From a virus (Duplodnaviria > Heunggongvirae > Uroviricota > Caudoviricetes): 14,316 nt of DNA. The stretch lies in IMG/VR virus record IMGVR_UViG_2547132279_000010, one strand, 5' to 3'. Under the pieces are notes generated by a model. That model had not been told where the DNA came from and searched no databases. It saw only the letters and a list, made by a program, of their open reading frames with translations. Both the position numbers and the translations under genes were made by a program. Of this stretch, positions 1-14,316 are shown one piece after another; position 1 is the first letter of the stretch, and each line of letters opens with the position of its first letter.

Positions 1-1949
<1,949 letters not shown>

Positions 1950-1964
1950 TCCGGGGAGTCAGAG

Positions 1965-2387
1965 ATGTTCCTGAAAACCGAATCATTTGAACATAACGGT
2001 GTGACCGTCACGCTTTCTGATCTGTCAGCCCTGCAGCGTATTGAGCATCTCGCCCTGATGAAACGGCAGGCAGAACAGGCGGAGTCAGACAGCAACCGGA
2101 AGTTTACTGTGGAAGACGCCATCAGAACCGGCGCGTTTCTGGTGGCGATGTCCCTGTGGCATAACCATCCGAAGAAGACAAAGCTGCCTTCCATGAATGA
2201 AGCCGTTAAACAGATTGAGCAGGAAGTGCTTACCACCTGGCCCACGGAGGCAATTTCTCATGCTGAAAACGTGGTGTACCGGCTGTCCGGTATGTATGAG
2301 TTTGTGGTGAATGATGCTCCTGAACAGACAGAGGACGCCGGGCCTGCAGAGCCTGTTTCTGCGGGAAAGTGTTCGATGGTGAGCTGA
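1965..2387 (+). CDS. G: Tail assembly chaperone G
   Basis: Translation MFLKTESFEHNGVTVTLSDLSALQRIEHLALMKRQAEQAE...PAEPVSAGKCSMVS is near-identical to lambda gpG. A GGGGAG ribosome-binding site lies upstream of the ATG. Confidence 0.9.
   Translation: MFLKTESFEHNGVTVTLSDLSALQRIEHLALMKRQAEQAESDSNRKFTVEDAIRTGAFLVAMSLWHNHPKKTKLPSMNEAVKQIEQEVLTTWPTEAISHAENVVYRLSGMYEFVVNDAPEQTEDAGPAEPVSAGKCSMVS
2363..2369 (+). promoter_or_regulatory. Programmed -1 frameshift slippery heptamer G_GGA_AAG (G to G-T)
   Basis: G-frame codons GCG GGA AAG TGT place the heptamer at 2363-2369. A -1 slip enters the T frame exactly (2369 GTG TTC GAT...). The motif and its position near the G 3' end are as in lambda. Confidence 0.8.
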
Positions 2388-2803
2388 GTTTTGCCCTGAA
2401 ACTGGCGCGAGAGATGGGGCGACCCGACTGGCGTGCCATGCTTGCCGGGATGTCATCCACGGAGTATGCCGACTGGCACCGCTTTTACAGTACCCATTAT
2501 TTTCATGATGTTCTGCTGGATATGCACTTTTCCGGGCTGACGTACACCGTGCTCAGCCTGTTTTTCAGCGATCCGGATATGCATCCGCTGGATTTCAGTC
2601 TGCTGAACCGGCGTGAGGCTGACGAAGAGCCTGAAGATGATGTGCTGATGCAGAAAGCGGCAGGGCTTGCCGGAGGCGTCCGCTTTGGCCCGGACGGGAA
2701 TGAAGTTATCCCCGCTTCCCCGGATGTGGCGGACATGACGGAGGATGACGTAATGCTGATGACAGTATCAGAAGGGATCGCAGGAGGAGTCCGGTATGGC
2801 TGA
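2363..2803 (+). CDS. T: T segment of the G-T tail assembly chaperone fusion, reached by -1 frameshift from G (full fusion spans 1965..2803)
   Basis: The -1 frame after the slippery site reads VFDGELSFALKLAREMGRPDWRAMLAGMSSTEYADWHRFY...GIAGGVRYG, which matches lambda gpT. It has no independent ATG or ribosome-binding site. Its stop overlaps the H start. Confidence 0.85.
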   Translation, partial: GKVFDGELSFALKLAREMGRPDWRAMLAGMSSTEYADWHRFYSTHYFHDVLLDMHFSGLTYTVLSLFFSDPDMHPLDFSLLNRREADEEPEDDVLMQKAAGLAGGVRFGPDGNEVIPASPDVADMTEDDVMLMTVSEGIAGGVRYG

Positions 2804-5375
2804 ACCGGTAGGCGATCTGGTCGTTGATTTAAGTCTGGATGCGGCCAGATTTGACGAGCAGATGGCCAGAGTCAGGCGTCATTTTTCCGGTACGGAAACT
2901 GATGCGAAAAAAACAGCGGCAGTCGTTGAACAGTCGCTGAGCCGACAGGCGCTGGCTGCACAGAAAGCGGGGATTTCCGTCGGGCAGTATAAAGCCGCCA
3001 TGCGTATGCTGCCTGCACAGTTCACCGACGTGGCCACGCAGCTTGCAGGCGGGCAAAGCCCGTGGCTGATCCTGCTGCAACAGGGGGGGCAGGTTAAGGA
3101 CTCCTTCGGCGGGATGATCCCCATGTTCAGGGGGCTTGCCGGTGCGATCACCCTGCCGATGGTGGGGGCCACCTCGCTGGCGGTGGCGACCGGTGCGCTG
3201 GCGTATGCCTGGTATCAGGGCAACTCAACCCTGTCCGATTTCAACAAAACGCTGGTCCTTTCCGGCAATCAGGCGGGACTGACGGCAGATCGTATGCTGG
3301 TCCTGTCCAGAGCCGGGCAGGCGGCAGGGCTGACGTTTAACCAGACCAGCGAGTCACTGACGGCGCTGGTGAATGCCGGTGTGCGTGGTGGTGAGCAGTT
3401 TGAGGCGATCAGCCAGAGTGTGGCGCGTTTCTCCTCTGCATCCGGCGTGGAGGTGGACAAGGTCGCTGAAGCCTTCGGGAAGCTGACCACAGACCCGACG
3501 TCGGGGCTGACGGCGATGGCGCGTCAGTTCCATAACGTGACGGCGGAGCAGATTGCGTATGTTGCTCAGTTGCAGCGTTCCGGAGATGAAGCCGGGGCAT
3601 TGCAGGCGGCGAACGAGGCCGCAACGAAAGGGTTTGATGACCAGACCCGCCGCCTGAAAGAGAACATGGGCACGCTGGAGACCTGGGCAGACAGGACAGC
3701 ACGGGCATTCAAATCCATGTGGGATTCGGTGCTGGATATTGGTCGCCCGGACACTGCCCAGGGAATGCTGGAGAAAGCAGAAAAGGCTTTTGATGAGGCG
3801 GACAAAAAATGGCAGTGGTATCAGAGCCGGAGCCACCGGCGCGGTAAAACCTCAGCATTTCTTGCCAATCTCCGGGGAGCATGGGAGGACAGAGCGAATG
3901 CGCAACTTGGGCTTTCAGCCGCCACGTTGCAGGCCGATCTTGAAAAGGCCAGAGAGATGGCAGCAAAGGACTGGGCCGAGTCTGAGGCATCACGGCTGAA
4001 ATATACCGAAGAGGCGCAGAAGGCTTACGAACGGCTGCAGACGCCGCTGGAGAAATATACCGCCCGTCAGGAAGAACTGAACAAGGCACTGAAAGACGGG
4101 AAAATCCTGCAGGCGGATTACAACACGCTGATGGCGGCGGCGAAAAAGGATTATGAAGCGACGCTGAAAAAGCCGAAACAGTCCGGCGTGAAGGTGTCTG
4201 CGGGCGATCGTCAGGAAGACAGTGCTCATGCTGCCCTGCTGACGCTTCAGGCTGAACTCCGGACGCTGGAGAAGCATGCCGGAGCAAATGAGAAAATCAG
4301 CCAGCAGCGCCGGGATTTGTGGAAGGCGGAGAGCCAGTTCGCGGTACTGGAGGAGGCGGCGCAACGTCGCCAGCTGTCTGCACAGGAGAAATCCCTGCAG
4401 GCGCATAAAGATGAGACGCTGGAGTACAAACGCCAGCTGGCTGCACTTGGCGACAAGGTTACGTATCAGGAGCGCCTGAACGCGCTGGCGCAGCAGGCGG
4501 ATAAATTCGCACAGCAGCAACGGGCAAAACGGGCCGCCATTGATGCGAAAAGCCGGGGGCTGACTGACCGGCAGGCAGAACGGGAAGCCACGGAACAGCG
4601 CCTGAAGGAACAGTATGGCGATAATCCGCTGGCGCTGAATAACGTCATGTCAGAGCAGAAAAAGACCTGGGCGGCTGAAGACCAGCTTCGCGGGAGCTGG
4701 ATGGCAGGCCTGAAGTCCGGCTGGAGTGAGTGGGAAGAGAGCGCCACGGACAGTATGTCGCAGGTAAAAAGTGCAGCCACGCAGACCTTTGATGGTATTG
4801 CACAGAATATGGCGGCGATGCTGATCGGCAGTGAGCAGAACTGGCGCAGCTTCACCCGTTCCGTGCTGTCCATGATGACAGAAATTCTGCTTAAGCAGGC
4901 AATGGTGGGGATTGTCGGGAGTATCGGCAGCGCCATTGGCGGGGCTGTTGGTGGCGGCGCATCCGCGTCAGGCGGTACAGCCATTCAGGCCGCTGCGGCG
5001 AAATTCCATTTTGCAACCGGAGGATTTACGGGAACCGGCGGCAAATATGAGCCAGCGGGGATTGTTCACCGTGGTGAATTTGTCTTCACGAAGGAGGCAA
5101 CCAGCCGGATTGGCGTGGGGAATCTTTACCGGCTGATGCGCGGCTATGCCACCGGCGGTTATGTCGGTACACCGGGCAGCATGGCAGACAGCCGGTCGCA
5201 GGCGTCCGGGACGTTTGAGCAGAATAACCATGTGGTGATTAACAACGACGGCACGAACGGGCAGATAGGTCCGGCTGCTCTGAAGGCGGTGTATGACATG
5301 GCCCGCAAGGGTGCCCGTGATGAAATTCAGACACAGATGCGTGATGGTGGCCTGTTCTCCGGAGGTGGACGATGA
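2796..5375 (+). CDS. H: Tail tape measure protein H (859 aa)
   Basis: The N-terminus MAEPVGDLVVDLSLDAARFDEQMARVRRHFSGTE... and C-terminus ...GGYVGTPGSMADSRSQASGTFEQNNHVVINNDGTNGQIGPAALKAVYDMARKGARDEIQTQMRDGGLFSGGGR match lambda gpH. An AGGAGG ribosome-binding site precedes the start. The start overlaps the T stop. Confidence 0.95.
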   Translation: MAEPVGDLVVDLSLDAARFDEQMARVRRHFSGTETDAKKTAAVVEQSLSRQALAAQKAGISVGQYKAAMRMLPAQFTDVATQLAGGQSPWLILLQQGGQVKDSFGGMIPMFRGLAGAITLPMVGATSLAVATGALAYAWYQGNSTLSDFNKTLVLSGNQAGLTADRMLVLSRAGQAAGLTFNQTSESLTALVNAGVRGGEQFEAISQSVARFSSASGVEVDKVAEAFGKLTTDPTSGLTAMARQFHNVTAEQIAYVAQLQRSGDEAGALQAANEAATKGFDDQTRRLKENMGTLETWADRTARAFKSMWDSVLDIGRPDTAQGMLEKAEKAFDEADKKWQWYQSRSHRRGKTSAFLANLRGAWEDRANAQLGLSAATLQADLEKAREMAAKDWAESEASRLKYTEEAQKAYERLQTPLEKYTARQEELNKALKDGKILQADYNTLMAAAKKDYEATLKKPKQSGVKVSAGDRQEDSAHAALLTLQAELRTLEKHAGANEKISQQRRDLWKAESQFAVLEEAAQRRQLSAQEKSLQAHKDETLEYKRQLAALGDKVTYQERLNALAQQADKFAQQQRAKRAAIDAKSRGLTDRQAEREATEQRLKEQYGDNPLALNNVMSEQKKTWAAEDQLRGSWMAGLKSGWSEWEESATDSMSQVKSAATQTFDGIAQNMAAMLIGSEQNWRSFTRSVLSMMTEILLKQAMVGIVGSIGSAIGGAVGGGASASGGTAIQAAAAKFHFATGGFTGTGGKYEPAGIVHRGEFVFTKEATSRIGVGNLYRLMRGYATGGYVGTPGSMADSRSQASGTFEQNNHVVINNDGTNGQIGPAALKAVYDMARKGARDEIQTQMRDGGLFSGGGR

Positions 5376-5701
5376 AGACCTTCCGCTGGAAAGTGAAACC
5401 CGGTATGGATGTGGCTTCGGTCCCTTCTGTAAGAAAGGTGCGCTTTGGTGATGGCTATTCTCAGCGAGCGCCTGCCGGGCTGAATGCCAACCTGAAAACG
5501 TACAGCGTGACGCTTTCTGTCCCCCGTGAGGAGGCCACGGTACTGGAGTCGTTTCTGGAAGAGCACGGGGGCTGGAAAGCCTTTCTGTGGACGCCGCCTT
5601 ATGAGTGGCGGCAGATAAAGGTGACCTGCGCAAAATGGTCGTCGCGGGTCAGTATGCTGCGTGTTGAGTTCAGCGCAGAGTTTGAACAGGTGGTGAACTG
5701 A
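5372..5701 (+). CDS. M: Minor tail protein M
   Basis: Translation MKTFRWKVKPGMDVASVPSVRKVRFGDGYSQRAPAGLNANLKTYSVTLSVPREEATVLESFLEEHGGWKAFLWTPPYEWRQIKVTCAKWSS... matches lambda gpM. The ATGA start/stop overlap with H is as in lambda. Confidence 0.9.
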   Translation: MKTFRWKVKPGMDVASVPSVRKVRFGDGYSQRAPAGLNANLKTYSVTLSVPREEATVLESFLEEHGGWKAFLWTPPYEWRQIKVTCAKWSSRVSMLRVEFSAEFEQVVN

Positions 5702-6399
5702 TGCAGGATATCCGGCAGGAAACACTGAATGAATGCACCCGTGCGGAGCAGTCGGCCAGCGTGGTGCTCTGGGAAATCGACCTGACAGAGGTCGGTGGAG
5801 AACGTTATTTTTTCTGTAATGAGCAGAACGAAAAAGGTGAGCCGGTCACCTGGCAGGGGCGACAGTATCAGCCGTATCCCATTCAGGGGAGCGGTTTTGA
5901 ACTGAATGGCAAAGGCACCAGTACGCGCCCCACGCTGACGGTTTCTAACCTGTACGGTATGGTCACCGGGATGGCGGAAGATATGCAGAGTCTGGTCGGC
6001 GGAACGGTGGTCCGGCGTAAGGTTTACGCCCGTTTTCTGGATGCGGTGAACTTCGTCAACGGAAACAGTTACGCCGATCCGGAGCAGGAGGTGATCAGCC
6101 GCTGGCGCATTGAGCAGTGCAGCGAACTGAGCGCGGTGAGTGCCTCCTTTGTACTGTCCACGCCGACGGAAACGGATGGCGCTGTTTTTCCGGGACGTAT
6201 CATGCTGGCCAACACCTGCACCTGGACCTATCGCGGTGACGAGTGCGGTTATAGCGGTCCGGCTGTCGCGGATGAATATGACCAGCCAACGTCCGATATC
6301 ACGAAGGATAAATGCAGCAAATGCCTGAGCGGTTGTAAGTTCCGCAATAACGTCGGCAACTTTGGCGGCTTCCTTTCCATTAACAAACTTTCGCAGTAA
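5701..6399 (+). CDS. L: Minor tail protein L (C-terminal cysteine cluster)
   Basis: Translation MQDIRQETLNECTRAEQSASVVLWEIDLTEVGGERYFFCNEQ...KDKCSKCLSGCKFRNNVGNFGGFLSINKLSQ matches lambda gpL. Its start overlaps the M stop by 1 nt. Confidence 0.9.
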   Translation: MQDIRQETLNECTRAEQSASVVLWEIDLTEVGGERYFFCNEQNEKGEPVTWQGRQYQPYPIQGSGFELNGKGTSTRPTLTVSNLYGMVTGMAEDMQSLVGGTVVRRKVYARFLDAVNFVNGNSYADPEQEVISRWRIEQCSELSAVSASFVLSTPTETDGAVFPGRIMLANTCTWTYRGDECGYSGPAVADEYDQPTSDITKDKCSKCLSGCKFRNNVGNFGGFLSINKLSQ

Positions 6400-6404
6400 A
6401 TCCC

Positions 6405-7148
6405 ATGACACAGACAGAATCAGCGATTCTGGCGCACGCCCGGCGATGTGCGCCAGCGGAGTCGTGCGGCTTCGTGGTAAGCACGCCGGAGGGGGAAAGA
6501 TATTTTCCCTGCGTGAATATCTCCGGTGAGCCGGAGGCGTATTTCCGTATGTCGCCGGAAGACTGGCTGCAGGCAGAAATGCAGGGTGAGATTGTGGCGC
6601 TGGTCCACAGCCACCCCGGTGGTCTGCCCTGGCTGAGTGAGGCCGACCGGCGGCTGCAGGTGCAGAGTGATTTGCCGTGGTGGCTGGTCTGCCGGGGGAC
6701 GATTCATAAGTTCCGCTGTGTGCCGCATCTCACCGGGCGGCGCTTTGAGCACGGTGTGACGGACTGTTACACACTGTTCCGGGATGCTTATCATCTGGCG
6801 GGGATTGAGATGCCGGACTTTTATCGTGAGGATGACTGGTGGCGTAACGGCCAGAATCTCTATCTGGATAATCTGGAGGCGACGGGGCTGTATCAGGTGC
6901 CGTTGTCAGCGGCACAGCCGGGCGATGTGCTGCTGTGCTGTTTTGGTTCATCAGTGCCGAATCACGCCGCAATTTACTGCGGCGACGGCGAGCTGCTGCA
7001 CCATATTCCTGAACAACTGAGCAAACGAGAGAGGTACACCGACAAATGGCAGCGACGCACACACTCCCTCTGGCGTCACCGGGCATGGCGCGCATCTGCC
7101 TTTACGGGGATTTACAACGATTTGGTCGCCGCATCGACCTTCGTGTGA
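6405..7148 (+). CDS. K: Tail assembly protein K (JAB/MPN metalloprotease-like plus NlpC/P60-like domains)
   Basis: Translation MTQTESAILAHARRCAPAESCGFVVSTPEGERYF...ALVHSHPGG (HxH JAMM-like motif) ...HGVTDCYTLFRDAYHLAGIEMPDF... matches lambda gpK. Confidence 0.9.
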   Translation: MTQTESAILAHARRCAPAESCGFVVSTPEGERYFPCVNISGEPEAYFRMSPEDWLQAEMQGEIVALVHSHPGGLPWLSEADRRLQVQSDLPWWLVCRGTIHKFRCVPHLTGRRFEHGVTDCYTLFRDAYHLAGIEMPDFYREDDWWRNGQNLYLDNLEATGLYQVPLSAAQPGDVLLCCFGSSVPNHAAIYCGDGELLHHIPEQLSKRERYTDKWQRRTHSLWRHRAWRASAFTGIYNDLVAASTFV

Positions 7149-7717
7149 AAACGGGGGCTGAAGCCATCCGGGCACTGGCCACACAGCTCCCGGCGTTTCG
7201 TCAGAAACTGAGCGACGGCTGGTATCAGGTACGGATTGCCGGGCGGGACGTCAGCACGTCCGGGTTAACGGCGCAGTTACATGAGACTCTGCCTGATGGC
7301 GCTGTGATTCATATTGTTCCCAGAGTCGCCGGGGCCAAGTCAGGTGGCGTATTCCAGATTGTCCTGGGGGCTGCCGCCATTGCCGGATCATTCTTTACTG
7401 CCGGAGCCACCCTTGCGGCATGGGGGGCAGCCATTGGGACCGGTGGTATGACCGGCATCCTGTTTTCTCTCGGTGCCAGTATGGTGCTCGGTGGTGTGGC
7501 GCAGATGCTGGCACCGAAAGCCAGAACTCCCCGTACACAGACAACGGATAACGGTAAGCAGAACACCTATTTCTCCTCACTGGATAACATGGTTGCCCAG
7601 GGCAATGTTCTGCCTGTTCTGTACGGGGAAATGCGCGTGGGGTCTCGCGTGGTTTCTCAGGAGATCAGCACGGCAGACGAAGGGGACGGTGGTCAGGTTG
7701 TGGTGATTGGTCGCTGA
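7046..7717 (+). CDS. I: Tail assembly protein I
   Basis: Translation MAATHTLPLASPGMARICLYGDLQRFGRRIDLRVKTGAEAIRALATQLPAFRQKL...GQVVVIGR matches lambda gpI. It overlaps the 3' end of K by about 100 nt in a different frame, as in lambda. Confidence 0.9.
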   Translation: MAATHTLPLASPGMARICLYGDLQRFGRRIDLRVKTGAEAIRALATQLPAFRQKLSDGWYQVRIAGRDVSTSGLTAQLHETLPDGAVIHIVPRVAGAKSGGVFQIVLGAAAIAGSFFTAGATLAAWGAAIGTGGMTGILFSLGASMVLGGVAQMLAPKARTPRTQTTDNGKQNTYFSSLDNMVAQGNVLPVLYGEMRVGSRVVSQEISTADEGDGGQVVVIGR

Positions 7718-7735
7718 TGCAAAATGTTTTATGTG

Positions 7736-7756
7736 AAACCGCCTGCGGGCGGTTTT
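7736..7756 (+). other. Perfect 8-bp hairpin (AAACCGCC-tgcg-GGCGGTTT) with T-rich 3' side in the I-J intergenic space
   Basis: Read directly from the sequence at 7736-7755, followed by T then GTCATTT. A GAGGAA ribosome-binding site and the J ATG (7778) lie about 20 nt downstream. The function is unknown; it could be a partial terminator or a processing/stability element. Confidence 0.3.
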
Positions 7757-7777
7757 GTCATTTATGGAGCGTGAGGA

Positions 7778-10700
7778 ATGGGTAAAGGCAGCAGTAAGGG
7801 GCATACCCCGCGCGAAGCGAAGGACAACCTGAAGTCCACGCAGCTGCTGAGTGTGATCGATGCCATCAGCGAAGGGCCGGTTGAAGGTCCGGTGGATGGA
7901 TTAAAAAGCGTGCTGCTGAACAGTACGCCGGTGCTGGACACTGAGGGGAATACCAACATCTCCGGTGTCACGGTGGTGTTCCGTGCCGGTGAGCAGGAGC
8001 AGACACCGCCGGAGGGGTTTGAATCCTCCGGCTCCGAGACGGTGCTGGGTACGGAAGTGAAATATGACACGCCGATCACCCGCACCATTACGTCTGCAAA
8101 CATCGACCGTCTGCGCTTTACCTTCGGCGTGCAGGCACTGGTGGAAACCACCTCAAAGGGGGACCGGAATCCGTCGGAAGTCCGCCTGCTGGTTCAGATC
8201 CAGCGTAATGGTGGCTGGGTGACGGAAAAAGACATCACCATTAAGGGCAAAACCACCTCGCAGTATCTGGCCTCGGTGGTGGTGGGTAACCTGCCGCCGC
8301 GCCCGTTCAATATACGGATGCGCAGGATGACGCCGGACAGCACCACAGACCAGCTGCAGAACAAAACGCTCTGGTCGTCATACACCGAAATCATCGATGT
8401 GAAACAGTGCTACCCGAACACGGCACTGGTCGGCGTGCAGGTGGATTCGGAGCAGTTCGGCAGCCAGCAGGTGAGCCGTAATTATCATCTGCGCGGGCGC
8501 ATTCTGCAGGTGCCGTCGAACTATAACCCGCAGACGCGGCAATACAGCGGTATCTGGGACGGAACGTTTAAGCCAGCATACAGCAACAACATGGCCTGGT
8601 GTCTGTGGGATATGCTGACCCATCCGCGCTACGGCATGGGGAAACGTCTTGGTGCGGCGGATGTGGACAAATGGGCGCTGTATGTCATCGGCCAGCATTG
8701 CGATCAGTCGGTGCCGGACGGTTTTGGCGGCACGGAGCCGCGCATCACCTGTAATGCGTACCTGACCACACAGCGCAAGGCGTGGGATGTGCTCAGTGAT
8801 TTCTGCTCTGCGATGCGCTGTATGCCGGTATGGAACGGGCAGACGCTGACGTTCGTGCAGGACCGACCGTCGGATAAGGTGTGGATCTATAACCGCAGTA
8901 ATGTGGTGATGCCGGATGATGGTGCGCCGTTCCGCTACAGCTTCAGCGCCCTGAAGGACCGCCATAATGCCGTTGAGGTGAACTGGATTGACCCGAATAA
9001 CGGCTGGGAGACGGCGACAGAGCTTGTGGAGGACACGCAGGCCATTGCCCGTTACGGTCGTAACGTCACGAAGATGGATGCTTTTGGCTGTACCAGCCGG
9101 GGGCAGGCACACCGCGCCGGGCTGTGGCTGATTAAAACAGAACTGCTGGAAACGCAGACCGTGGACTTCAGCGTGGGTGCCGAAGGGCTTCGCCATGTAC
9201 CGGGCGATGTCATTGAAATCTGCGATGATGACTATGCCGGTATCCGCACCGGCGGGCGCGTGCTGGCGGTAAACAGCCAGACCCGGACGCTGACGCTCGA
9301 CCGTGAAATCACGCTGCCATCTTCCGGCACCACGCTGATAAGCCTGGTTGACGGGCAGGGGAGTCCGGTCAGCGTGGAGGTTCAGTCCGTCACCGACGGC
9401 GTGAAGGTGAAAGTGAGCCGTGTTCCTGACGGCGTTGCTGAATACAGCGTATGGGGGCTGAAGCTGCCGACGTTGCGCCAGCGCCTGTTCCGCTGCGTGA
9501 GTATCCGTGAGAACGACGACGGCACGTATGCCATCACCGCCGTGCAGCATGTACCGGAAAAAGAGGCCATCGTGGATAACGGGGCGCACTTTGACGGCGA
9601 CCAGAGCGGCACGGTAAATGGTGTCACGCCGCCAGCGGTGCAGCACCTGACCGCAGAAGTCACCGCAGACAGCGGGGAATACCAGGTGCTGGCGCGCTGG
9701 GACACGCCGAAGGTGGTGAAGGGCGTGAGCTTCCTGCTTCGCCTGACCGTGGCAGCGGATGACGGCCGTGAGCGGCTGGTCAGCACGGCCCGGACGACGG
9801 AAACCACTTACCGCTTCACACAACTGGCTCTGGGGAACTACAGGCTGACAGTCCGGGCAGTAAATGCGTGGGGGCAGCAGGGCGATCCGGCATCGGTATC
9901 GTTCCGGATTGCCGCACCGGCAGCGCCGTCGCGGATTGAGCTGACGCCGGGCTATTTTCAGATAACCGCCACGCCGCATCTTGCGGTTTATGACCCGACG
10001 GTACAGTTTGAGTTCTGGTTCTCGGAAAAACGGATTGCGGATATCAGGCAGGTTGAAACCAGCGCGCGTTATCTTGGTACGGCACTGTACTGGATAGCCG
10101 CCAGTATCAATATCAAACCGGGCCATGATTATTATTTTTACGTTCGCAGTGTGAACACCGTTGGCAAATCGGCATTCGTGGAGGCTGTCGGTCAGCCGAG
10201 TGATGATGCATCCGGCTATCTGGATTTTTTCAAAGGCGAGATAGGGAAAACCCATCTGGCTCAGGAGCTGTGGACGCAGATTGATAACGGTCAGCTTGCG
10301 CCTGACCTGACTGAAATCAGGACGTCCATAACGGATGTCAGCAATGAAATAACACAGACCGTCAATAAGAAGCTGGAAGACCAGAGTGCAGCGATCCAGC
10401 AGATACAGAAGGTTCAGGTTGATACAAATAATAACCTGAACAGCATGTGGGCAGTGAAGCTGCAGCAGATGCAGGACGGACGCCTTTATATTGCGGGTAT
10501 CGGTGCCGGTATTGAGAACACCCCTGACGGCATGCAGAGTCAGGTGCTGCTGGCAGCAGACAGGATTGCGATGATTAATCCTGCGAATGGCAACACAAAG
10601 CCGATGTTTGTTGGTCAGGGCGATCAGATATTCATGAATGAAGTGTTCCTGAAACGCCTGACGGCCCCCACCATTACCAGCGGCGGTAATCCTCCGGCAT

Positions 10701-11257
10701 TTTCCCTGACATCAGACGGGAGACTGACGGCGAAAAATGCGGATATCAGTGGTAGTGTGAATGCGAACTCAGGAACGCTCAACAATGTCACGATTAACGA
10801 GAACTGTCGGGTTCTGGGAAAATTGTCCGCCAACCAGATTGAAGGCGATCTCGTTAAAACAGTGGGCAAAGCTTTCCCCCGGGACTCCCGTGCACCGGAG
10901 CGGTGGCCATCAGGAACCATTACCGTCAGGGTTTATGACGATCAGCCGTTTGACCGGCAGATTGTTATTCCGGCGGTGGCATTCAGTGGCGCTAAGCATG
11001 AGAGAGAGCATACTGATATTTACTCCTCATGCCGTCTGATAGTGCGGAAAAACGGTGCTGAAATTTATAACCGTACCGCGCTGGATAATACGCTGATTTA
11101 CAGTGGCGTTATTGATATGCCTGCCGGTCACGGTCACATGACACTGGAGTTTTCGGTGTCAGCATGGCTGGTAAATAACTGGTATCCCACAGCAAGCATC
11201 AGCGATTTGCTGGTTGTGGTGATGAAGAAGGCCACAGCAGGCATCACGATTAGCTGA
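7778..11257 (+). CDS. J: Tail tip / host-specificity protein J (1159 aa; central fibronectin-III-like repeats, C-terminal receptor-binding domain)
   Basis: Translation [58 protein letters not shown]... matches lambda gpJ over most of its length. The ribosome-binding site GAGGAA precedes the start. Only the last ~150 aa diverge. Confidence 0.95.
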
Positions 11258-11275: not shown

Positions 11276-11300
11276 GGGCGCCAGAAATGGCGCCTTTTTT
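11276..11300 (+). terminator. Rho-independent terminator downstream of J (tJ-like)
   Basis: GGCGCC-agaaat-GGCGCC stem-loop (11277-11294) followed directly by a TTTTTT run (11295-11300). Confidence 0.7.
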
Positions 11301-11324
11301 ATTGCAGAAAAGCGAGAGGTAATT

Positions 11325-11924
11325 ATGCGTAAATTATGTGCTGTTATTCTGTCCGCAGCCATCTGTCTGTCCGTATCCGGTGCGCCTGCATGGGCGTCTG
11401 AGCAGCAGGCCACACTGAGCGCAGGGTATCTTCATGCCCGTACGAACGCTCCCGGCAGCGATAATCTGAACGGGATTAACGTGAAATACCGTTATGAGTT
11501 TACGGACACGCTGGGGCTGATTACGTCATTCAGTTATGCCAACGCTGAAGATGAGCAAAAAACGCATTACAGCGATACCCGCTGGCATGAAGATTCCGTG
11601 CGTAACCGCTGGTTCAGCGTAATGGCGGGGCCGTCTGTGCGCGTGAATGAATGGTTCAGCGCGTATGCGATGGCGGGTGTGGCTTACAGCCGTGTGTCGA
11701 CTTTCTCCGGGGATTATCTCCGCGTAACTGACAACAAGGGGAAAAAGCACGATGTGCTGACCGGAAGTGATGACGGTCGCCACAGCAACACGTCTCTGGC
11801 GTGGGGAGCTGGCGTGCAGTTTAACCCGACCGAATCCGTGGCCATTGATGTCGCTTATGAAGGCTCCGGCAGTGGTGACTGGCGCACTGACGGGTTCATC
11901 GTGGGTGTTGGTTATAAATTCTGA
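11325..11924 (+). CDS. lom: Lom-like outer membrane beta-barrel protein (Ail/Lom/PagC/OmpX family), a prophage moron
   Basis: Signal peptide [24 protein letters not shown]. The C-terminal half ...[30 protein letters not shown]...[28 protein letters not shown] is near-identical to lambda Lom, while the N-terminal half is more divergent. A GAGAGG ribosome-binding site precedes the start. Confidence 0.9.
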
Positions 11925-11950
11925 TTAGCCAGGTAACACAGTGTTATGAC

Positions 11951-11978
11951 AGCCCGCCGGTTCAGGCGGGCTTTTTTG
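11951..11978 (+). terminator. Rho-independent terminator downstream of lom
   Basis: AGCCCGCC-ggttca-GGCGGGCT 8-bp stem (11951-11972) followed by TTTTTTG. Confidence 0.7.
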
Positions 11979-11988
11979 TGGGGTGAAT

Positions 11989-14316
11989 ATGGCAGTAAAA
12001 ATTTCAGGTGTACTGAAAGACGGCACAGGAAAACCGGTACAGAACTGCACAATCCAGCTGAAAGCAAAACGTAACAGTACCACGGTGGTGGTGAACACGC
12101 TGGCATCTGAAAATCCGGATGAAGCCGGGCGTTACAGTATGGACGTTGAGTACGGTCAGTACAGCGTTATTCTGTTGGTGGAAGGATTCCCGCCGTCACA
12201 TGCCGGGACCATCACAGTGTATGAAGATTCCCGACCCGGTACGCTGAATGATTTTCTCGGTGCCATGACGGAGGATGATGCCCGTCCGGAGGCACTGCGC
12301 CGTTTTGAGCTGATGGTGGAAGAGGTGGCGCGTAACACGTCCGCAGTGGCACAGAACACGGCAGCCGCGAAGAAGTCAGCCAGTGATGCCAGCACATCAG
12401 CCCGTGAGGCGGCAACCCGTGCGACTGATGCTGCAGGCTCAGCACGTGCCGCCAGCACGTCAGCCGGACAGGCCGCGTCGTCGGCTCAGTCAGCGTCTTC
12501 CAGCGCAGGAACGGCATCGACAAAGGCCAGTGAAGCAGCGAAAAGTGCTGCCGCTGCAGAGTCCTCAAAAAGTGCGGCGGCCACCAGTGCCGGTGCGGCG
12601 AAAACGTCAGAAACGAATGCCGCAGCGTCACAACAATCAGCAGCCACTTCTGCATCCACCGCGACCACGAAAGCGTCAGAAGCTGCCACCTCAGCCCGGG
12701 ATGCGGCGGCCTCAAAAGAGGCAGCGAAATCATCAGAAACGAACGCATCCTTGAGCGCCAGTAGCGCAGCTTCCTCGGCAACGGCGGCAGGAAATTCCGC
12801 GAAGGCGGCAAAAACGTCCGAGACGAACGCCAGGTCTTCTGAGACGGCAGCGGGACAGAGCGCCTCAGCTGCGGCAGGCTCAAAAACAGCGGCTGCATTA
12901 TCTGCCAGTGCCGCGTCAACAAGTGCCGGGCAGGCCTCAGCCAGTGCCACCGCCGCCGGAAAATCGGCAGAAAGCGCCGCATCATCCGCTTCAACAGCCA
13001 CAACGAAGGCTGGCGAAGCCACTGAGCAAGCCACTGCAGCAGCGAGGTCTGCTTCTGCAGCAAAAACCTCTGAAACAAATGCAAAGACTTCAGCAGACAA
13101 TGCTGCTTCCTCTAAGGCGGCAGCCGCATCGTCCGCTGGTTCAGCGGCGTCATCGGCATCATCTGCGTCTGCTTCAAAAGATGAGGCGACCAGACAAGCG
13201 TCAGCAGCGAAAGGTAGTGCCACGACAGCAACAACGAAAGCATCAGAGGCGGCAGGCAGTGCGACGGCTGCATCTCAGAGCAAAGTTGCTGCTGAATCCG
13301 CGGCAACGCGTGCCGAAACAGCGGCAAAACGGGCAGAGGATATTGCTGATGCCGTATCTCTGGAAGATGCGAGCACGACGAAAAAAGGTGTGGTTCAGCT
13401 CAGCAGTGCGACCAACAGCACTTCCGAGTCACTGGCGGCAACACCAAAGGCAGTAAAGGCAGCATATGACCTTGCTAACGCAAAATATACCGCTCAGGAC
13501 GCAACGACGGCACGAAAAGGGATAGTTCAGCTCAGTAGCGCCACTAACAGCACATCTGAAACGCTGGCTGCGACGCCAAAAGCTGTTAAGGCGGTAATGG
13601 ATGAAACGAACAAGAAAGCGCCCTTAAATAGTCCTGCACTGACCGGAACGCCAACAACGCCAACTGCGCCGAAAGGGACTAATAATACTCAGATCGCAAG
13701 CACGGCTTATGTGATGGCCGCGATTGCCGCACTTGTAGACTCGTCGCCTGACGCACTGAATACGTTGAACGAGTTAGCGGCGGCGCTGGGAAACGACCCG
13801 AATTTTGCGACCACCATGACTAAAGCGCTTGCGGGTAAGCAACCGAAAGATGCCACCCTGACGGCGCTGGCCGGGCTTGCTACTGCGGCAGACAAGTTTC
13901 CGTATTTTACGGGGAATGATGTCGCCAGCCTGGCAACTCTGACAAAAGTCGGGCGGGATATTCTTGCGAAATCGACCGTTGCCGCTGTTATCGAATACCT
14001 CGGTTTACAGGAAACGGTAAATCAGGCTTCTGGCGCATTACAGAAAAAACAGAACGGCGCAGATATTCCAGGAAAAGATACCTTCACCAAAAATATTGGT
14101 GCCTGCCGCGCATATAGCGCATGGCTGAATATTGGTGGCGATAGTCAGACCTGGACAACCGCACAATTCATTTCGTGGCTGGAGAGTCAGGGGGCATTTA
14201 ACCATCCTTACTGGATGTGCAAAGGCTCATGGGCTTATGCAAACAATAAGGTCATTACAGATACAGGTTGCGGAAATATTTGTCTTGCAGGTGCTGTGGT
14301 GGAAGTTATTGGCACT
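11989..14316 (+). CDS. stf: Side tail fibre protein Stf-like, 3'-partial (776 codons open to the window end)
   Basis: The N-terminus MAVKISGVLKDGTGKPVQNCTIQLKAKRNSTTVVVNTLASENPDEAGRYSMDVEYGQYSVIL...FPPSHAGTITVYEDS matches lambda Stf. It is followed by a long Ala/Ser/Thr-rich shaft and two phage-tail-fibre repeats (KG[IV]VQLSSATNSTSE[ST]LAATPKAVK). My hand translation found no stop in this frame through 14316. The ORF track omits it, apparently because it has no stop inside the window. Confidence 0.85.
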   Translation, partial: MAVKISGVLKDGTGKPVQNCTIQLKAKRNSTTVVVNTLASENPDEAGRYSMDVEYGQYSVILLVEGFPPSHAGTITVYEDSRPGTLNDFLGAMTEDDARPEALRRFELMVEEVARNTSAVAQNTAAAKKSASDASTSAREAATRATDAAGSARAASTSAGQAASSAQSASSSAGTASTKASEAAKSAAAAESSKSAAATSAGAAKTSETNAAASQQSAATSASTATTKASEAATSARDAAASKEAAKSSETNASLSASSAASSATAAGNSAKAAKTSETNARSSETAAGQSASAAAGSKTAAALSASAASTSAGQASASATAAGKSAESAASSASTATTKAGEATEQATAAARSASAAKTSETNAKTSADNAASSKAAAASSAGSAASSASSASASKDEATRQASAAKGSATTATTKASEAAGSATAASQSKVAAESAATRAETAAKRAEDIADAVSLEDASTTKKGVVQLSSATNSTSESLAATPKAVKAAYDLANAKYTAQDATTARKGIVQLSSATNSTSETLAATPKAVKAVMDETNKKAPLNSPALTGTPTTPTAPKGTNNTQIASTAYVMAAIAALVDSSPDALNTLNELAAALGNDPNFATTMTKALAGKQPKDATLTALAGLATAADKFPYFTGNDVASLATLTKVGRDILAKSTVAAVIEYLGLQETVNQASGALQKKQNGADIPGKDTFTKNIGACRAYSAWLNIGGDSQTWTTAQFISWLESQGAFNHPYWMCKGSWAYANNKVITDTGCGNICLAGAVVEVIGT
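12330..13330 (+). repeat. Low-complexity Ala/Ser/Thr-rich degenerate repeat region encoding the Stf shaft
   Basis: Recurring AAKTSETNA, SAATSAG and ASSAQSASS-type motifs. The strong compositional bias generates long spurious antisense ORFs (12212..13084 and 12486..13223, minus strand). Confidence 0.6.
13375..13608 (+). repeat. Tandem pair of phage-tail-fibre repeat units (~40 codons each) within stf
   Basis: Unit 1 (~13375-13480) encodes TTKKGVVQLSSATNSTSESLAATPKAVKAAYDLANAKY. Unit 2 (~13504-13608) encodes TARKGIVQLSSATNSTSETLAATPKAVKAVMDETNKK. The copies are similar at protein level but carry many synonymous differences at DNA level, so the duplication is old rather than recent. Confidence 0.6.

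What the first reader, a model, noticed from the sequence alone, without database searches (positions are those of the whole stretch)
11989..14316. Stf-like side tail fibre with expanded Ala/Ser shaft, duplicated fibre repeat and a non-lambda distal region; ORF is open, unlike the frameshifted stf of laboratory lambda
The N-terminal ~100 residues match lambda Stf. The Ala/Ser/Thr-rich shaft then appears longer than I remember for lambda. Two tail-fibre repeat units are present in tandem (13375-13608). After ...ILAKSTVAAVIEYLG (about 14003) the sequence switches to ...LQETVNQASGALQKKQNGADIPGKDTFTKNIGACRAYSAWLNIGGDSQTWTTAQFISWLESQGAFNHPYWMCKGSWAYANNKVITDTGCGNICLAGAVVEVIGT. That does not match my recollection of the lambda Stf distal region ([37 protein letters not shown]...). 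The distal domain of side tail fibres, together with the downstream tfa chaperone, sets receptor specificity, so this points to modular exchange of the fibre tip. The frame is uninterrupted for 776 codons and still open at the window edge.
Basis: partly seen in the sequence, partly recalled or inferred. Interest (0 to 1): 0.5.

Follow-up and report, generated by a model that had tools for sequence, protein, structure and literature searches.

The report
Lambda-type tail fibre with switchable tip
This is the front three-quarters of a lambda-type side tail fibre gene whose "non-lambda" end is the phage Mu S'-type tip of a flip-flop (invertible) DNA cassette; this is a known way for phages to switch host range, so it is a tidy but largely ordinary example.

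Summary
Window 11989-14316 is one open frame of 776 codons. Its N-terminus is the lambda Stf type (93% identity over 100 aa). Compared with lambda, the Ala/Ser shaft has 105 extra residues and there is one extra 44-aa fibre repeat. Lambda homology ends exactly after ...EYLG.

The switch point is not an arbitrary mosaic joint. It is a 34-nt inverted-repeat arm (window 13988-14021) with the same core as the phage Mu gix crossover site. What follows is 96-98% identical in DNA to the Mu/D108 S' tip.

In genomes whose last 3 kb are 100% identical to the window, the ORF runs to 989 aa. After it come tfa, an inverted tfa, an inverted alternative tip, a second gix site and a dead invertase stub. In-silico inversion gives an in-frame 961-aa fibre. 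The flipped form exists in a near-identical prophage in ETEC-2264. Among complete E. coli genomes with the same dead-invertase lesion, 96 show one orientation and 56 the other, so flipping is probably driven in trans.

The window ends at a draft-contig end, so the cassette is inferred from relatives.

Verdict: a new member of a known kind (Mu G / P1 C / e14 P type). Interest is modest.

The parts
11989..14316 (+). stf: the first 776 codons of a side tail fibre gene, cut off by the end of the draft contig. The full length is 989 aa in genomes identical over window 11300-14316.
   Evidence: Open frame. Pfam PF08400 plus two PF03406 repeats. 100% identity to NZ_CP024240.1 174096-177112, where the CDS is 2970 nt. 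Contig end.
11989..12390 (+). Lambda Stf-type N-terminal domain (residues 1-134), the part that attaches the fibre to the tail.
   Evidence: PF08400 over 1-134/134, E = 4.9e-71. 93% identity to lambda Stf over residues 1-100 and 89.6% over 1-134.
12331..13353 (+). Ala/Ser/Thr-rich shaft (about residues 115-455). In 50-residue bins, 68-80% of residues are A, S or T.
   Evidence: Composition by 50-residue bins. Alignment to lambda.
12898..13212 (+). 105-residue block of shaft (residues 304-408) that lambda Stf lacks.
   Evidence: MAFFT global alignment shows a single gap block in lambda after its residue 303. The same shaft length occurs in many lambdoid phages, which match query positions 1-1482 or 1-1592 in one ungapped piece.
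13366..13629 (+). Two tandem 44-residue phage tail fibre repeats (13366-13497 and 13498-13629). Lambda Stf has one.
   Evidence: Pfam PF03406 in two stretches. The units share 30/44 aa and 83/132 nt, and lambda lacks one unit.
13988..14021 (.). Left arm of the 34-nt inverted repeat, a gix-type crossover site. The 26-bp core TTATCGAATACC-TC-GGTTTACAGGAA lies at 13988-14013. The central TC at 14000-14001 falls inside the Leu671 codon. The arm encodes VIEYLGLQETVN.
   Evidence: Arms at L001 11689-11722 and 14608-14641 are 94% complementary and 2885 nt apart. Same core as the Mu G-segment repeats. The annotated Mu G-segment boundary maps here. Lambda DNA keeps the left half-site and diverges at the centre.
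14022..14316 (+). First 98 codons of the variable receptor-binding tip, Mu S' (G(-)) type.
   Evidence: Window 13990-14316 is 96-98% identical to Mu, D108, SfMu and P88 S', and window 14035-14316 is about 97% identical to P7/RCS47. The full tip, Stf 667-989, is 95% identical in amino acids to Mu S' 166-488. PDB 8JU3 matches with E = 6.5e-213.

Best explanation
The gene encodes a lambda-type side tail fibre. Its constant part (N-terminal attachment domain, long Ala/Ser shaft, two fibre repeats and a collar region) ends at a gix-type crossover site. From that site onward the reading frame enters a Mu G-type invertible cassette.

In the closest complete genomes the order is gix, S'-type tip, U'-type chaperone, inverted U-type chaperone, inverted alternative tip, gix, invertase stub. 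A Gin/Pin-family serine invertase acting on the two gix sites reverses the 2.9-kb cassette. The same constant fibre is then completed by one or other tip and made together with its matching chaperone, which changes the surface receptor the particle recognises. For Mu, the two tips recognise different parts of the LPS core.

In the window's orientation the Mu S' (G(-)) type tip is the one expressed.

In every close relative examined, the cassette's own invertase is dead. It has a stop at codon 65 and is fused to a tfa fragment after about codon 77. Flipping therefore most likely depends on invertases encoded elsewhere in the genome.

Shown: the anatomy, the homologies, the in-frame alternative fusion, and both orientations in near-identical prophages.

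Inferred: that inversion is enzymatic and occurs in trans, which invertase does it, the receptor specificity, and that the window's own genome carries the rest of the cassette.
For: - Inverted repeat: a 34-nt repeat, 94% complementary, brackets 2885 nt, and its left arm lies at window 13988-14021. The core is the same as the Mu G repeats.
- Homology to Mu: L001 11689-13790 is 93.7% identical to Mu Sv'-U'-U, and 14328-14641 is 92% identical to the start of Mu Sv plus gix.
- Proteins: the tip is 95% identical to Mu S', and the Tfa proteins are 94% identical to U' and U. Both chaperones hit Pfam Caudo_TAP.
- Alternative fusion: in-silico inversion at the gix centres gives an uninterrupted 961-aa Stf.
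- Flipped form in nature: the predicted flipped junction occurs at 100.0% identity over 800 nt in ETEC-2264 and LR882978. ETEC-2264 has the same prophage at potB with the same 64-aa invertase stub (WP_001387651.1), and differs by an exact repeat-to-repeat inversion plus about 15 substitutions in 12.8 kb.
- Population counts: among complete E. coli genomes with the invertase::tfa lesion, 96 have one orientation and 56 the other. Both occur within the same downstream-context classes.
- Conserved stub: the stretch from the right gix site through the first 190 nt or so of the invertase gene is almost invariant compared with Mu and with a P2-like prophage that has an intact 199-aa invertase. In the Hin system the enhancer lies about 100 bp from one site (PMC3798978).
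- Candidate helpers: three more Gin-like 3' regions per chromosome in 90-9280, ETEC-2264 and H10407, plus an intact pinQ.
- Published precedent: PinQ, PinR and PinE all invert the e14 segment, and PinE inverts Mu G (PMC12529663). G(+) and G(-) fibres bind different LPS core regions (PMC11821841, PMC11915804).
Against: - The window stops 295 nt past the left gix site because the draft contig ends there. The second gix site, the alternative tip, the chaperones and the invertase were seen only in related genomes.
- The window is a hybrid of two prophages of strain 90-9280, so its true downstream context (potB type with a dead invertase, or Qin type with pinQ) is unknown.
- No reads or experiments show inversion within one culture.
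- The positions and intactness of the three Gin-like loci were not determined.
- PinQ is only 36% identical to Gin.
- Homologous recombination across the 34-nt repeats, or exchange between prophages, would give the same products as site-specific inversion.
Confidence: 0.8

Rival explanations
1. Fossil cassette. The invertible segment was captured from a Mu-like or P2-like phage and has been frozen since its invertase died. The two orientations seen across genomes would then be old states spread by descent and by recombination between prophages, not ongoing switching.
For: The local invertase is unquestionably dead, with a stop at codon 65 and a fusion to a tfa fragment. Prophage mosaicism is rampant here: the window itself is a hybrid of two prophages. 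At least one lesion-bearing genome (E66) shows no other Gin-like region.
Against: 90-9280 and ETEC-2264 differ by an exact repeat-to-repeat inversion while their flanks are 99.8-99.97% identical and they share the same lesion. Both orientations recur inside each downstream-context class. The gix sites and the stub region where an enhancer would lie remain intact. Both alternative tips and both chaperones remain open reading frames.
Confidence: 0.15
2. Simple mosaic joint. The tip was swapped once by ordinary homologous recombination at a conserved sequence box, and no inversion system is involved at this locus.
For: Lambda Stf shares the sequence up to ...EYLG and retains the left half-site. 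This shows the box is a general recombination joint among fibre genes. The distal constant part (residues 445-675) is also 90% identical to a P2-like H fibre.
Against: A complete second inverted site, a second tip and chaperone in the opposite orientation, and an invertase stub lie downstream in all 100%-identical relatives. The flipped state exists in nature.
Confidence: 0.04
3. Host-domesticated switch. The fibre is no longer used to build infectious phage. The cell uses it, as it uses e14 StfE2, as an inversion-controlled protein that masks surface receptors against other phages, or as the targeting fibre of a tail-only (tailocin-like) particle.
For: In the source contig the tail genes V through stf abut an IS3 transposase and chromosomal genes, with no head genes to the left. 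PinQ-driven inversion of the e14 stf segment blocks T2 adsorption (PMC12529663). The lesion-bearing cassette is kept in about 150 complete genomes with all four ORFs open.
Against: The identical stf allele in 90-9280 sits in an otherwise nearly complete lambdoid prophage with integrase, lysis, head and tail genes. No expression or phenotype data exist. The tail-only context may be an assembly chimera.
Confidence: 0.08

Closest known systems
Phage Mu G segment (S/U, S'/U', gin) and its D108 and SfMu relatives
   Same: Same gix core, the same cassette order (tip, chaperone, inverted chaperone, inverted tip) and the invertase gene next to the right site. DNA identity over Sv'-U'-U is 93.7%. The expressed tip is 95% identical to Mu S', and the chaperones are 94% identical to U' and U.
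   Different: The constant part is a 672-residue lambda Stf-type protein on a siphovirus tail, not the 170-residue Mu Sc on a contractile-tail baseplate. The alternative tip is only 48% identical to Mu S. The invertase is a dead stub.
e14 P segment with pinE (stfE/tfaE/tfaP/stfP) in E. coli K-12
   Same: A lambdoid prophage in which a serine invertase flips a tail-fibre tip and chaperone cassette. Inversion has been shown in culture and can be driven in trans by PinQ and PinR (PMC4272514, PMC12529663).
   Different: In e14 the segment is 1797 bp, its repeat sequence is different (TTGGTTTGGGAGAAGG), only a fragment of the fibre's constant part remains, and its own invertase (pinE) is intact. 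Here the full-length Stf is present and the invertase is dead.
P2-like prophage H-fibre invertible cassettes (for example strain CH4804 and phage P88) and the P1/P7 C segment
   Same: Near-identical cassette: the alternative tip is 96% identical, the gix cores match, and the distal constant part is 90% identical to Stf 445-675. P7 and RCS47 S match window 14035-14316 at about 97%.
   Different: Those cassettes sit on myovirus fibres (baseplate genes V, W, J, I upstream) and keep an intact 199-aa invertase.
Lambda Stf/Tfa (Ur-lambda type, 774 aa)
   Same: Position after J and lom, the PF08400 N-terminal domain, the shaft, a fibre repeat and the collar up to ...EYLG. Identity is 83.7% over 523 aligned residues.
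   Different: Lambda lacks 105 shaft residues and one repeat. It has a different, non-invertible His/Gly-rich tip after EYLG, and only the left half of the crossover site.

Membership tests
Lambda Stf-type side tail fibre | N-terminal 'prophage tail fibre N-terminal' domain (PF08400) | tested here: met
   PF08400 over 1-134/134, 237 bits against a cut-off of 26.6. 93% identity to lambda Stf residues 1-100.
Lambda Stf-type side tail fibre | Located downstream of J and lom in a lambda-order tail gene cluster | tested here: met
   The source contig has the order V, G, T, tape measure, M, L, K, I, J, Lom, stf. The annotation of relatives gives the same order.
Lambda Stf-type side tail fibre | Colinear with lambda Stf through the receptor-binding C-terminus | tested here: not met
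   Homology ends after residue 672 (lambda residue 523). The distal 317 residues are Mu S' type.
Lambda Stf-type side tail fibre | Followed by a Tfa-type assembly chaperone | tested here: met
   In genomes 100% identical over window 11300-14316, a 177-aa Caudo_TAP protein starts 2 nt after the stop codon. This cannot be seen in the window itself because the contig ends.
Gin/Cin/Pin/Hin-type invertible tail-fibre cassette (Mu G type) | Two inverted crossover sites with the gix-type 12-2-12 core, the left one inside the fibre ORF at the boundary between constant and variable parts | tested here: met
   The left arm is in the window at 13988-14021. The right arm is at L001 14608-14641. The arms are 94% complementary, the core matches Mu, and the central dinucleotide is TC/GA.
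Gin/Cin/Pin/Hin-type invertible tail-fibre cassette (Mu G type) | Two alternative tip-plus-chaperone gene sets in opposite orientation between the sites, both giving in-frame fusions | tested here: met
   Annotation and Pfam for the relatives. The in-silico flip gives a 961-aa open frame. This lies outside the window.
Gin/Cin/Pin/Hin-type invertible tail-fibre cassette (Mu G type) | Intact adjacent serine invertase gene | tested here: not met
   Only codons 1-64 are present (95% identical to Gin). A TGA replaces Arg65, about 12 further codons follow, and then the gene is fused to a tfa 3' end. The state in the source genome is unknown.
Gin/Cin/Pin/Hin-type invertible tail-fibre cassette (Mu G type) | Fis-dependent enhancer in cis | tested here: inconclusive
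   The first 190 nt or so of the invertase gene are almost invariant compared with Mu and with a P2-like prophage that has an intact invertase. The enhancer itself was not mapped here. Its position is taken from the Hin system (PMC3798978) and from memory for gin.
Gin/Cin/Pin/Hin-type invertible tail-fibre cassette (Mu G type) | Both orientations occur | tested here: met
   An exact repeat-to-repeat inversion separates the near-identical prophages of 90-9280 and ETEC-2264. 96 genomes against 56 among lesion-bearing prophages.
Gin/Cin/Pin/Hin-type invertible tail-fibre cassette (Mu G type) | Inversion catalysed by a serine invertase within a cell population | not testable with these tools
   This needs read-level or PCR data from clonal cultures and invertase mutants.
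Mu S' (gp52, G(-)) receptor-binding tip | Sequence and fold of the S' C-terminal region | tested here: met
   95% amino-acid identity over 323 residues. The solved Mu S/S' fibre 8JU3 matches residues 1-317 of the tip with E = 6.5e-213. Only the first 104 tip residues lie in the window.
Mu S' (gp52, G(-)) receptor-binding tip | Same receptor and host range as Mu G(-) | not testable with these tools
   There are 16 substitutions in 323 residues. Adsorption tests on defined LPS core types are needed.

The most novel reading that the evidence does not exclude
The cassette is an 'orphan' switch. It has lost its own invertase but kept both crossover sites, the probable enhancer region and all four ORFs, and it is flipped by invertases of other resident prophages (Gin-like genes of P2- or Mu-type prophages, or PinQ). 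If so, one prophage's recombinase would set the host range of another prophage. Alternatively, as with PinQ and StfE2, the cell could use the flip to display a fibre that masks receptors against incoming phages. The tail-only context in the source contig would also be consistent with a tailocin-like particle whose targeting can be switched.
Probability: 0.2. Interest if true: 0.55.

Novelty: new member of a known kind. Interest (0 to 1): 0.3.

Why it matters
The result gives a concrete mechanistic reading of a gene that genome annotation labels only "prophage tail fiber N-terminal domain-containing protein". The alternative tip next to it is labelled "hypothetical protein".

It shows that a complete lambda-type side tail fibre can carry the Mu G-type flip-flop tip, so a siphovirus and several myoviruses share one receptor-recognition cassette.

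About 150 complete E. coli genomes carry the cassette next to an identical dead invertase yet show both orientations. This is a natural data set for studying cross-talk between prophage recombinases, a topic that has gained interest since PinQ-driven inversion was linked to phage defence.

Practically, host-range prediction and phage or tailocin engineering from such prophages must take into account that the assembled orientation is only one of two states.

Tried and rejected
- **First orientation counts.** These gave 160 genomes against 129, but the 80% coverage threshold also admitted cassettes with an unfused recombinase (hits covering 1-587). I redesigned the queries so that both the tip and the invertase::tfa fusion were required.
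- **e14 Pin as helper.** I looked for e14 and pinE at the icd site of strain 90-9280. It is absent.
- **Treating 90-9280 as the source.** I assumed this after the 100% match of the last 3 kb. That was wrong: upstream the window is only about 98% identical to that prophage, and no complete genome covers the whole window. An exact-protein look-up of J found the true source, a draft contig that ends at the window edge.
- **Locating the three extra Gin-like loci.** Only their number could be obtained, through a chimeric anchor query. Their positions and intactness remain unknown.
- **PinQ.** It was found intact but is only 36% identical to Gin, so it is a candidate helper and not an assignment.
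- **Tandem Repeats Finder.** It did not report the 132-nt fibre repeat. The units are only 63% identical in DNA, but the repeat is clear at the protein level.
- **Papers not held.** Mehta et al. 2004 (e14), Sandmeier et al. 1992 (Min/Cin) and Johnson's review were not in the library. Statements that rest on them are marked as memory or are cited through papers that quote them.
- **Structure prediction.** Not run, because a solved structure of the homologous tip exists.
Full report
**1. What is in the sequence**

Window 11989-14316 is a single open frame of 776 codons on the + strand. It lies after genes for the tail tube, G/T, tape measure, M, L, K, I, J (window 7778-11257) and Lom (11325-11924), which is the lambda tail gene order.

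Pfam places the "prophage tail fibre N-terminal" domain on residues 1-134 and finds two "phage tail fibre repeat" units.

I aligned the protein with the uninterrupted 774-aa Stf of a record labelled phage Lambda (KT232076). The first 100 residues are 93% identical. Residues 1-672 align with lambda 1-523 at 83.7% identity with only two gaps. One is a 105-residue block of Ala/Ser shaft (residues 304-408). The other is a 44-residue block that is one extra fibre repeat.

The two repeat units are at window 13366-13497 and 13498-13629 and share 30 of 44 residues. The long shaft is not unusual: about twenty lambdoid phages (PhiR26_1, mEp460_ev081, ev099, 2H10 and others) match the first 1482-1592 nt in one ungapped piece at 90-92%.

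After ...VIEYLG the two proteins have nothing in common.

**2. What the switch point is**

The last 327 nt of the window are 96-98% identical to the S' variable region of phages Mu, D108 and SfMu and of the P2-like phage P88. Window 14035-14316 is about 97% identical to the S variable part of the P7 C segment. The annotated Mu "G-segment boundary" falls at window position 14000 or so.

In NZ_CP024240.1 (E. coli O114:H49 strain 90-9280), window 11300-14316 is reproduced at 100% identity. There a 34-nt inverted repeat, 94% complementary, has arms at positions equivalent to window 13988-14021 and 2885 nt further on. Its 26-bp core is TTATCGAATACC-TC-GGTTTACAGGAA. This is the Mu gix sequence with two or three substitutions. 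The central TC lies in the Leu671 codon.

Lambda DNA keeps the left half-site (TTcTtGAATACC) and diverges within a few bases of the centre.

**3. What lies beyond the window, in relatives**

In 90-9280 the ORF continues to 989 aa. It is followed by a 177-aa Tfa, then on the other strand a 175-aa Tfa and a 278-aa ORF annotated "hypothetical protein", then the second gix site, then a 64-aa "recombinase family protein".

- DNA identity to Mu is 93.7% over Sv'-U'-U and 92% over the start of Sv plus gix. The middle of the alternative tip has no DNA match to Mu.
- At the protein level, Stf 667-989 is 95% identical to Mu S', and the two Tfa proteins are 94% identical to U' and U.
- The alternative tip is 48% identical to Mu S but 96% identical to the alternative tip of a P2-like prophage.
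- The solved Mu S/S' fibre (PDB 8JU3) matches the expressed tip at E = 6.5e-213. Mu S (5YVQ) matches the N-terminal part of the silent tip.

Reversing the interval between the two gix centres in silico gives an uninterrupted 961-aa Stf...VIEYLGLQETVN-RARNAVQKNGDTLSGG....

**4. The invertase is dead**

The stub reads VLIGYVRVSTNDQ...VVWKLD and is 95% identical to Mu Gin residues 1-64, including the catalytic serine region. It then has TGA where Gin has Arg65 and about 12 more recognisable codons. After that it runs directly into the 3' end of a tfa gene. The rest of the catalytic domain and the whole DNA-binding domain are missing (Pfam Resolvase positions 2-73 of 145).

By contrast, the segment from the right gix site through the first 190 nt or so of the invertase gene is almost invariant compared with Mu and with the P2-like prophage whose 199-aa invertase is intact. 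In the related Hin system the Fis-bound enhancer lies about 100 bp from one crossover site (PMC3798978). From memory of Kahmann et al. 1985, the gin enhancer likewise lies in the 5' part of gin. So the cis elements probably survive, but that step is an inference.

**5. Evidence that the cassette still flips**

The predicted flipped left junction (800 nt) occurs at 100.0% identity in ETEC-2264 and in LR882978. ETEC-2264 has the same prophage at the same potB site, with the same Lom, the same two Tfa proteins and the same invertase stub. The two loci differ by an exact repeat-to-repeat inversion. The inverted block has 4 mismatches in 2953 nt, and the flanks are 99.8-99.97% identical.

I built right-junction queries that reach 80% coverage only if both a given tip and the invertase::tfa fusion are present. 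With these, 96 complete E. coli genomes have the window's orientation and 56 the other. Both orientations are found in each class of downstream context.

The identical lesion is most simply explained by a single origin. On that reading, inversion has happened repeatedly after the invertase was lost, which means in trans.

Candidate helpers exist. I ran a chimeric query made of a single-copy anchor plus the 3' two-thirds of Mu gin, which the stub lacks. It returns one place in many genomes but four in 90-9280, ETEC-2264, H10407 and LR882978. In addition, 90-9280 has an intact pinQ at its Qin-site prophage, though PinQ is only 36% identical to Gin.

Trans-inversion is established for this enzyme family. 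PinQ, PinR and PinE all invert the e14 segment, PinE inverts Mu G, and Fin inverts the Salmonella H segment (PMC12529663). The e14 segment flips in ordinary cultures (PMC4272514).

**6. How it most likely works**

Gin-type dimers bind each gix site. With Fis and the enhancer they form a tetramer, cut both sites through the serine (Ser9 in Gin), rotate by 180 degrees and religate (PMC3575834, PMC3798978). The constant Stf is thereby completed by one tip or the other, and the matching chaperone becomes co-oriented with it.

In Mu the G(+) and G(-) fibres recognise different parts of the LPS core and give different host ranges (PMC11821841, PMC11915804, and van de Putte 1980 as cited there). By analogy, the window's state would display a Mu G(-)-type specificity on a lambda-type virion. 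The receptor itself was not tested.

**7. Caveats about the window itself**

An exact-protein look-up of J identified the source as contig AELC01000016.1 of draft assembly GCA_000166575.2. The window's right edge is the contig end. The "open at the edge" frame is therefore an assembly break 295 nt past the gix site. That is a plausible place for a break, either because the tip is repeated elsewhere in the genome or because the culture was mixed in orientation. This is speculation.

The left flank (ynfC, speG, ynfB, ynfA, an rspA fragment, then an IS3-family transposase abutting tail gene V) places the contig at the Qin site, with no head genes.

Relative to 90-9280, the window is a hybrid. Positions 1 to about 10,800 are 99.9-100% identical to that strain's Qin-site remnant. 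Positions from about 9,000 to the end are 100% identical to its potB-site prophage. The two share about 1.8 kb of J. The resulting J protein is on record only for this contig. The contig is therefore either a true recombinant or a chimeric assembly. In either case the stf allele studied is the potB-type one.

In 90-9280 that prophage is nearly complete, with integrase, regulators, lysis, head and tail genes, and a frameshifted replication gene.

**8. Comparison with what is known, and verdict**

Invertible tail-fibre cassettes are classical: Mu G/gin, P1 and P7 C/cin, p15B Min and e14 P/pin. The shared joints between lambda Stf and the P2, Mu and P1 fibres were noted in the early 1990s (from memory: Haggard-Ljungquist 1992, Sandmeier 1992; those papers are not held in the library).

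This locus adds three things:
- a full-length lambda-type Stf joined to a near-Mu cassette;
- a precisely defined dead-invertase lesion shared by about 150 complete genomes;
- population evidence that the orphan cassette still changes orientation.

That makes it a new member of a known kind. It is useful for annotation and for studying cross-talk between prophage recombinases, but it would not surprise a specialist. Interest 0.3.

Noticed in passing
window 1-1178 (minus strand), and 1257-1949: An IS3-family transposase (392 aa; HTH_Tnp_1 and rve domains) directly abuts tail tube gene V. To its left in the source contig are the chromosomal genes ynfC, speG, ynfB, ynfA and an rspA fragment. So at this (Qin) site the prophage is a tail-only remnant without head genes. 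In strain 90-9280 the same IS3 copy is itself interrupted by IS30.
   Followed up: partly
window about 9000-10800 (inside J, 7778-11257): The window switches here from 99.9-100% identity with the Qin-site remnant of strain 90-9280 to 100% identity with its potB-site prophage, across about 1.8 kb that the two share. The hybrid J protein is on record only for this draft contig. It is either a real inter-prophage recombinant or a chimeric assembly.
   Followed up: partly
window 14316: The window's right edge coincides with the end of draft contig AELC01000016.1 (240,153 bp), 295 nt past the gix site. The break may reflect a repeated tip sequence or mixed cassette orientation in the sequenced culture.
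   Followed up: no
L001 14918-16068 (NZ_CP024240.1 180013-181163): A class I SAM-dependent methyltransferase gene (222 aa; PHROG of unknown function) sits at the prophage end. It is flanked by two 76-nt direct repeats (96% identical) of a tfa 3' end, one of which is fused to the invertase stub. It looks like cargo inserted by recombination between tfa ends.
   Followed up: no
L008 8026-10044 (NZ_AP022287.1): In another E. coli genome, the same methyltransferase and a frameshifted recombinase remnant are followed by a gene annotated 'TIR domain-containing anti-phage reverse transcriptase'. This suggests that this prophage end is a hot spot for defence cargo.
   Followed up: no
L001 13790-14328 and 14887-14927: The cassette is itself mosaic. 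The middle of the silent tip has no DNA similarity to Mu S but is 96% identical in protein to a P2-like prophage tip. Codons 65-77 of the invertase stub diverge sharply in DNA from both Mu gin and the P2-like invertase, although codons 1-64 are nearly identical to them.
   Followed up: partly
window 8378-10255 (minus strand): A 625-codon ATG-initiated open frame runs antisense to J. It is probably a by-product of J's codon composition and was not examined.
   Followed up: no
L010 20233-24894 (NZ_CP024240.1 641088-645749): The Qin-site remnant of 90-9280 carries a different, 1132-aa Stf followed by tfaQ and an intact pinQ. No gix-like site of the type studied here was found in that 28.7-kb stretch.
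   Followed up: partly
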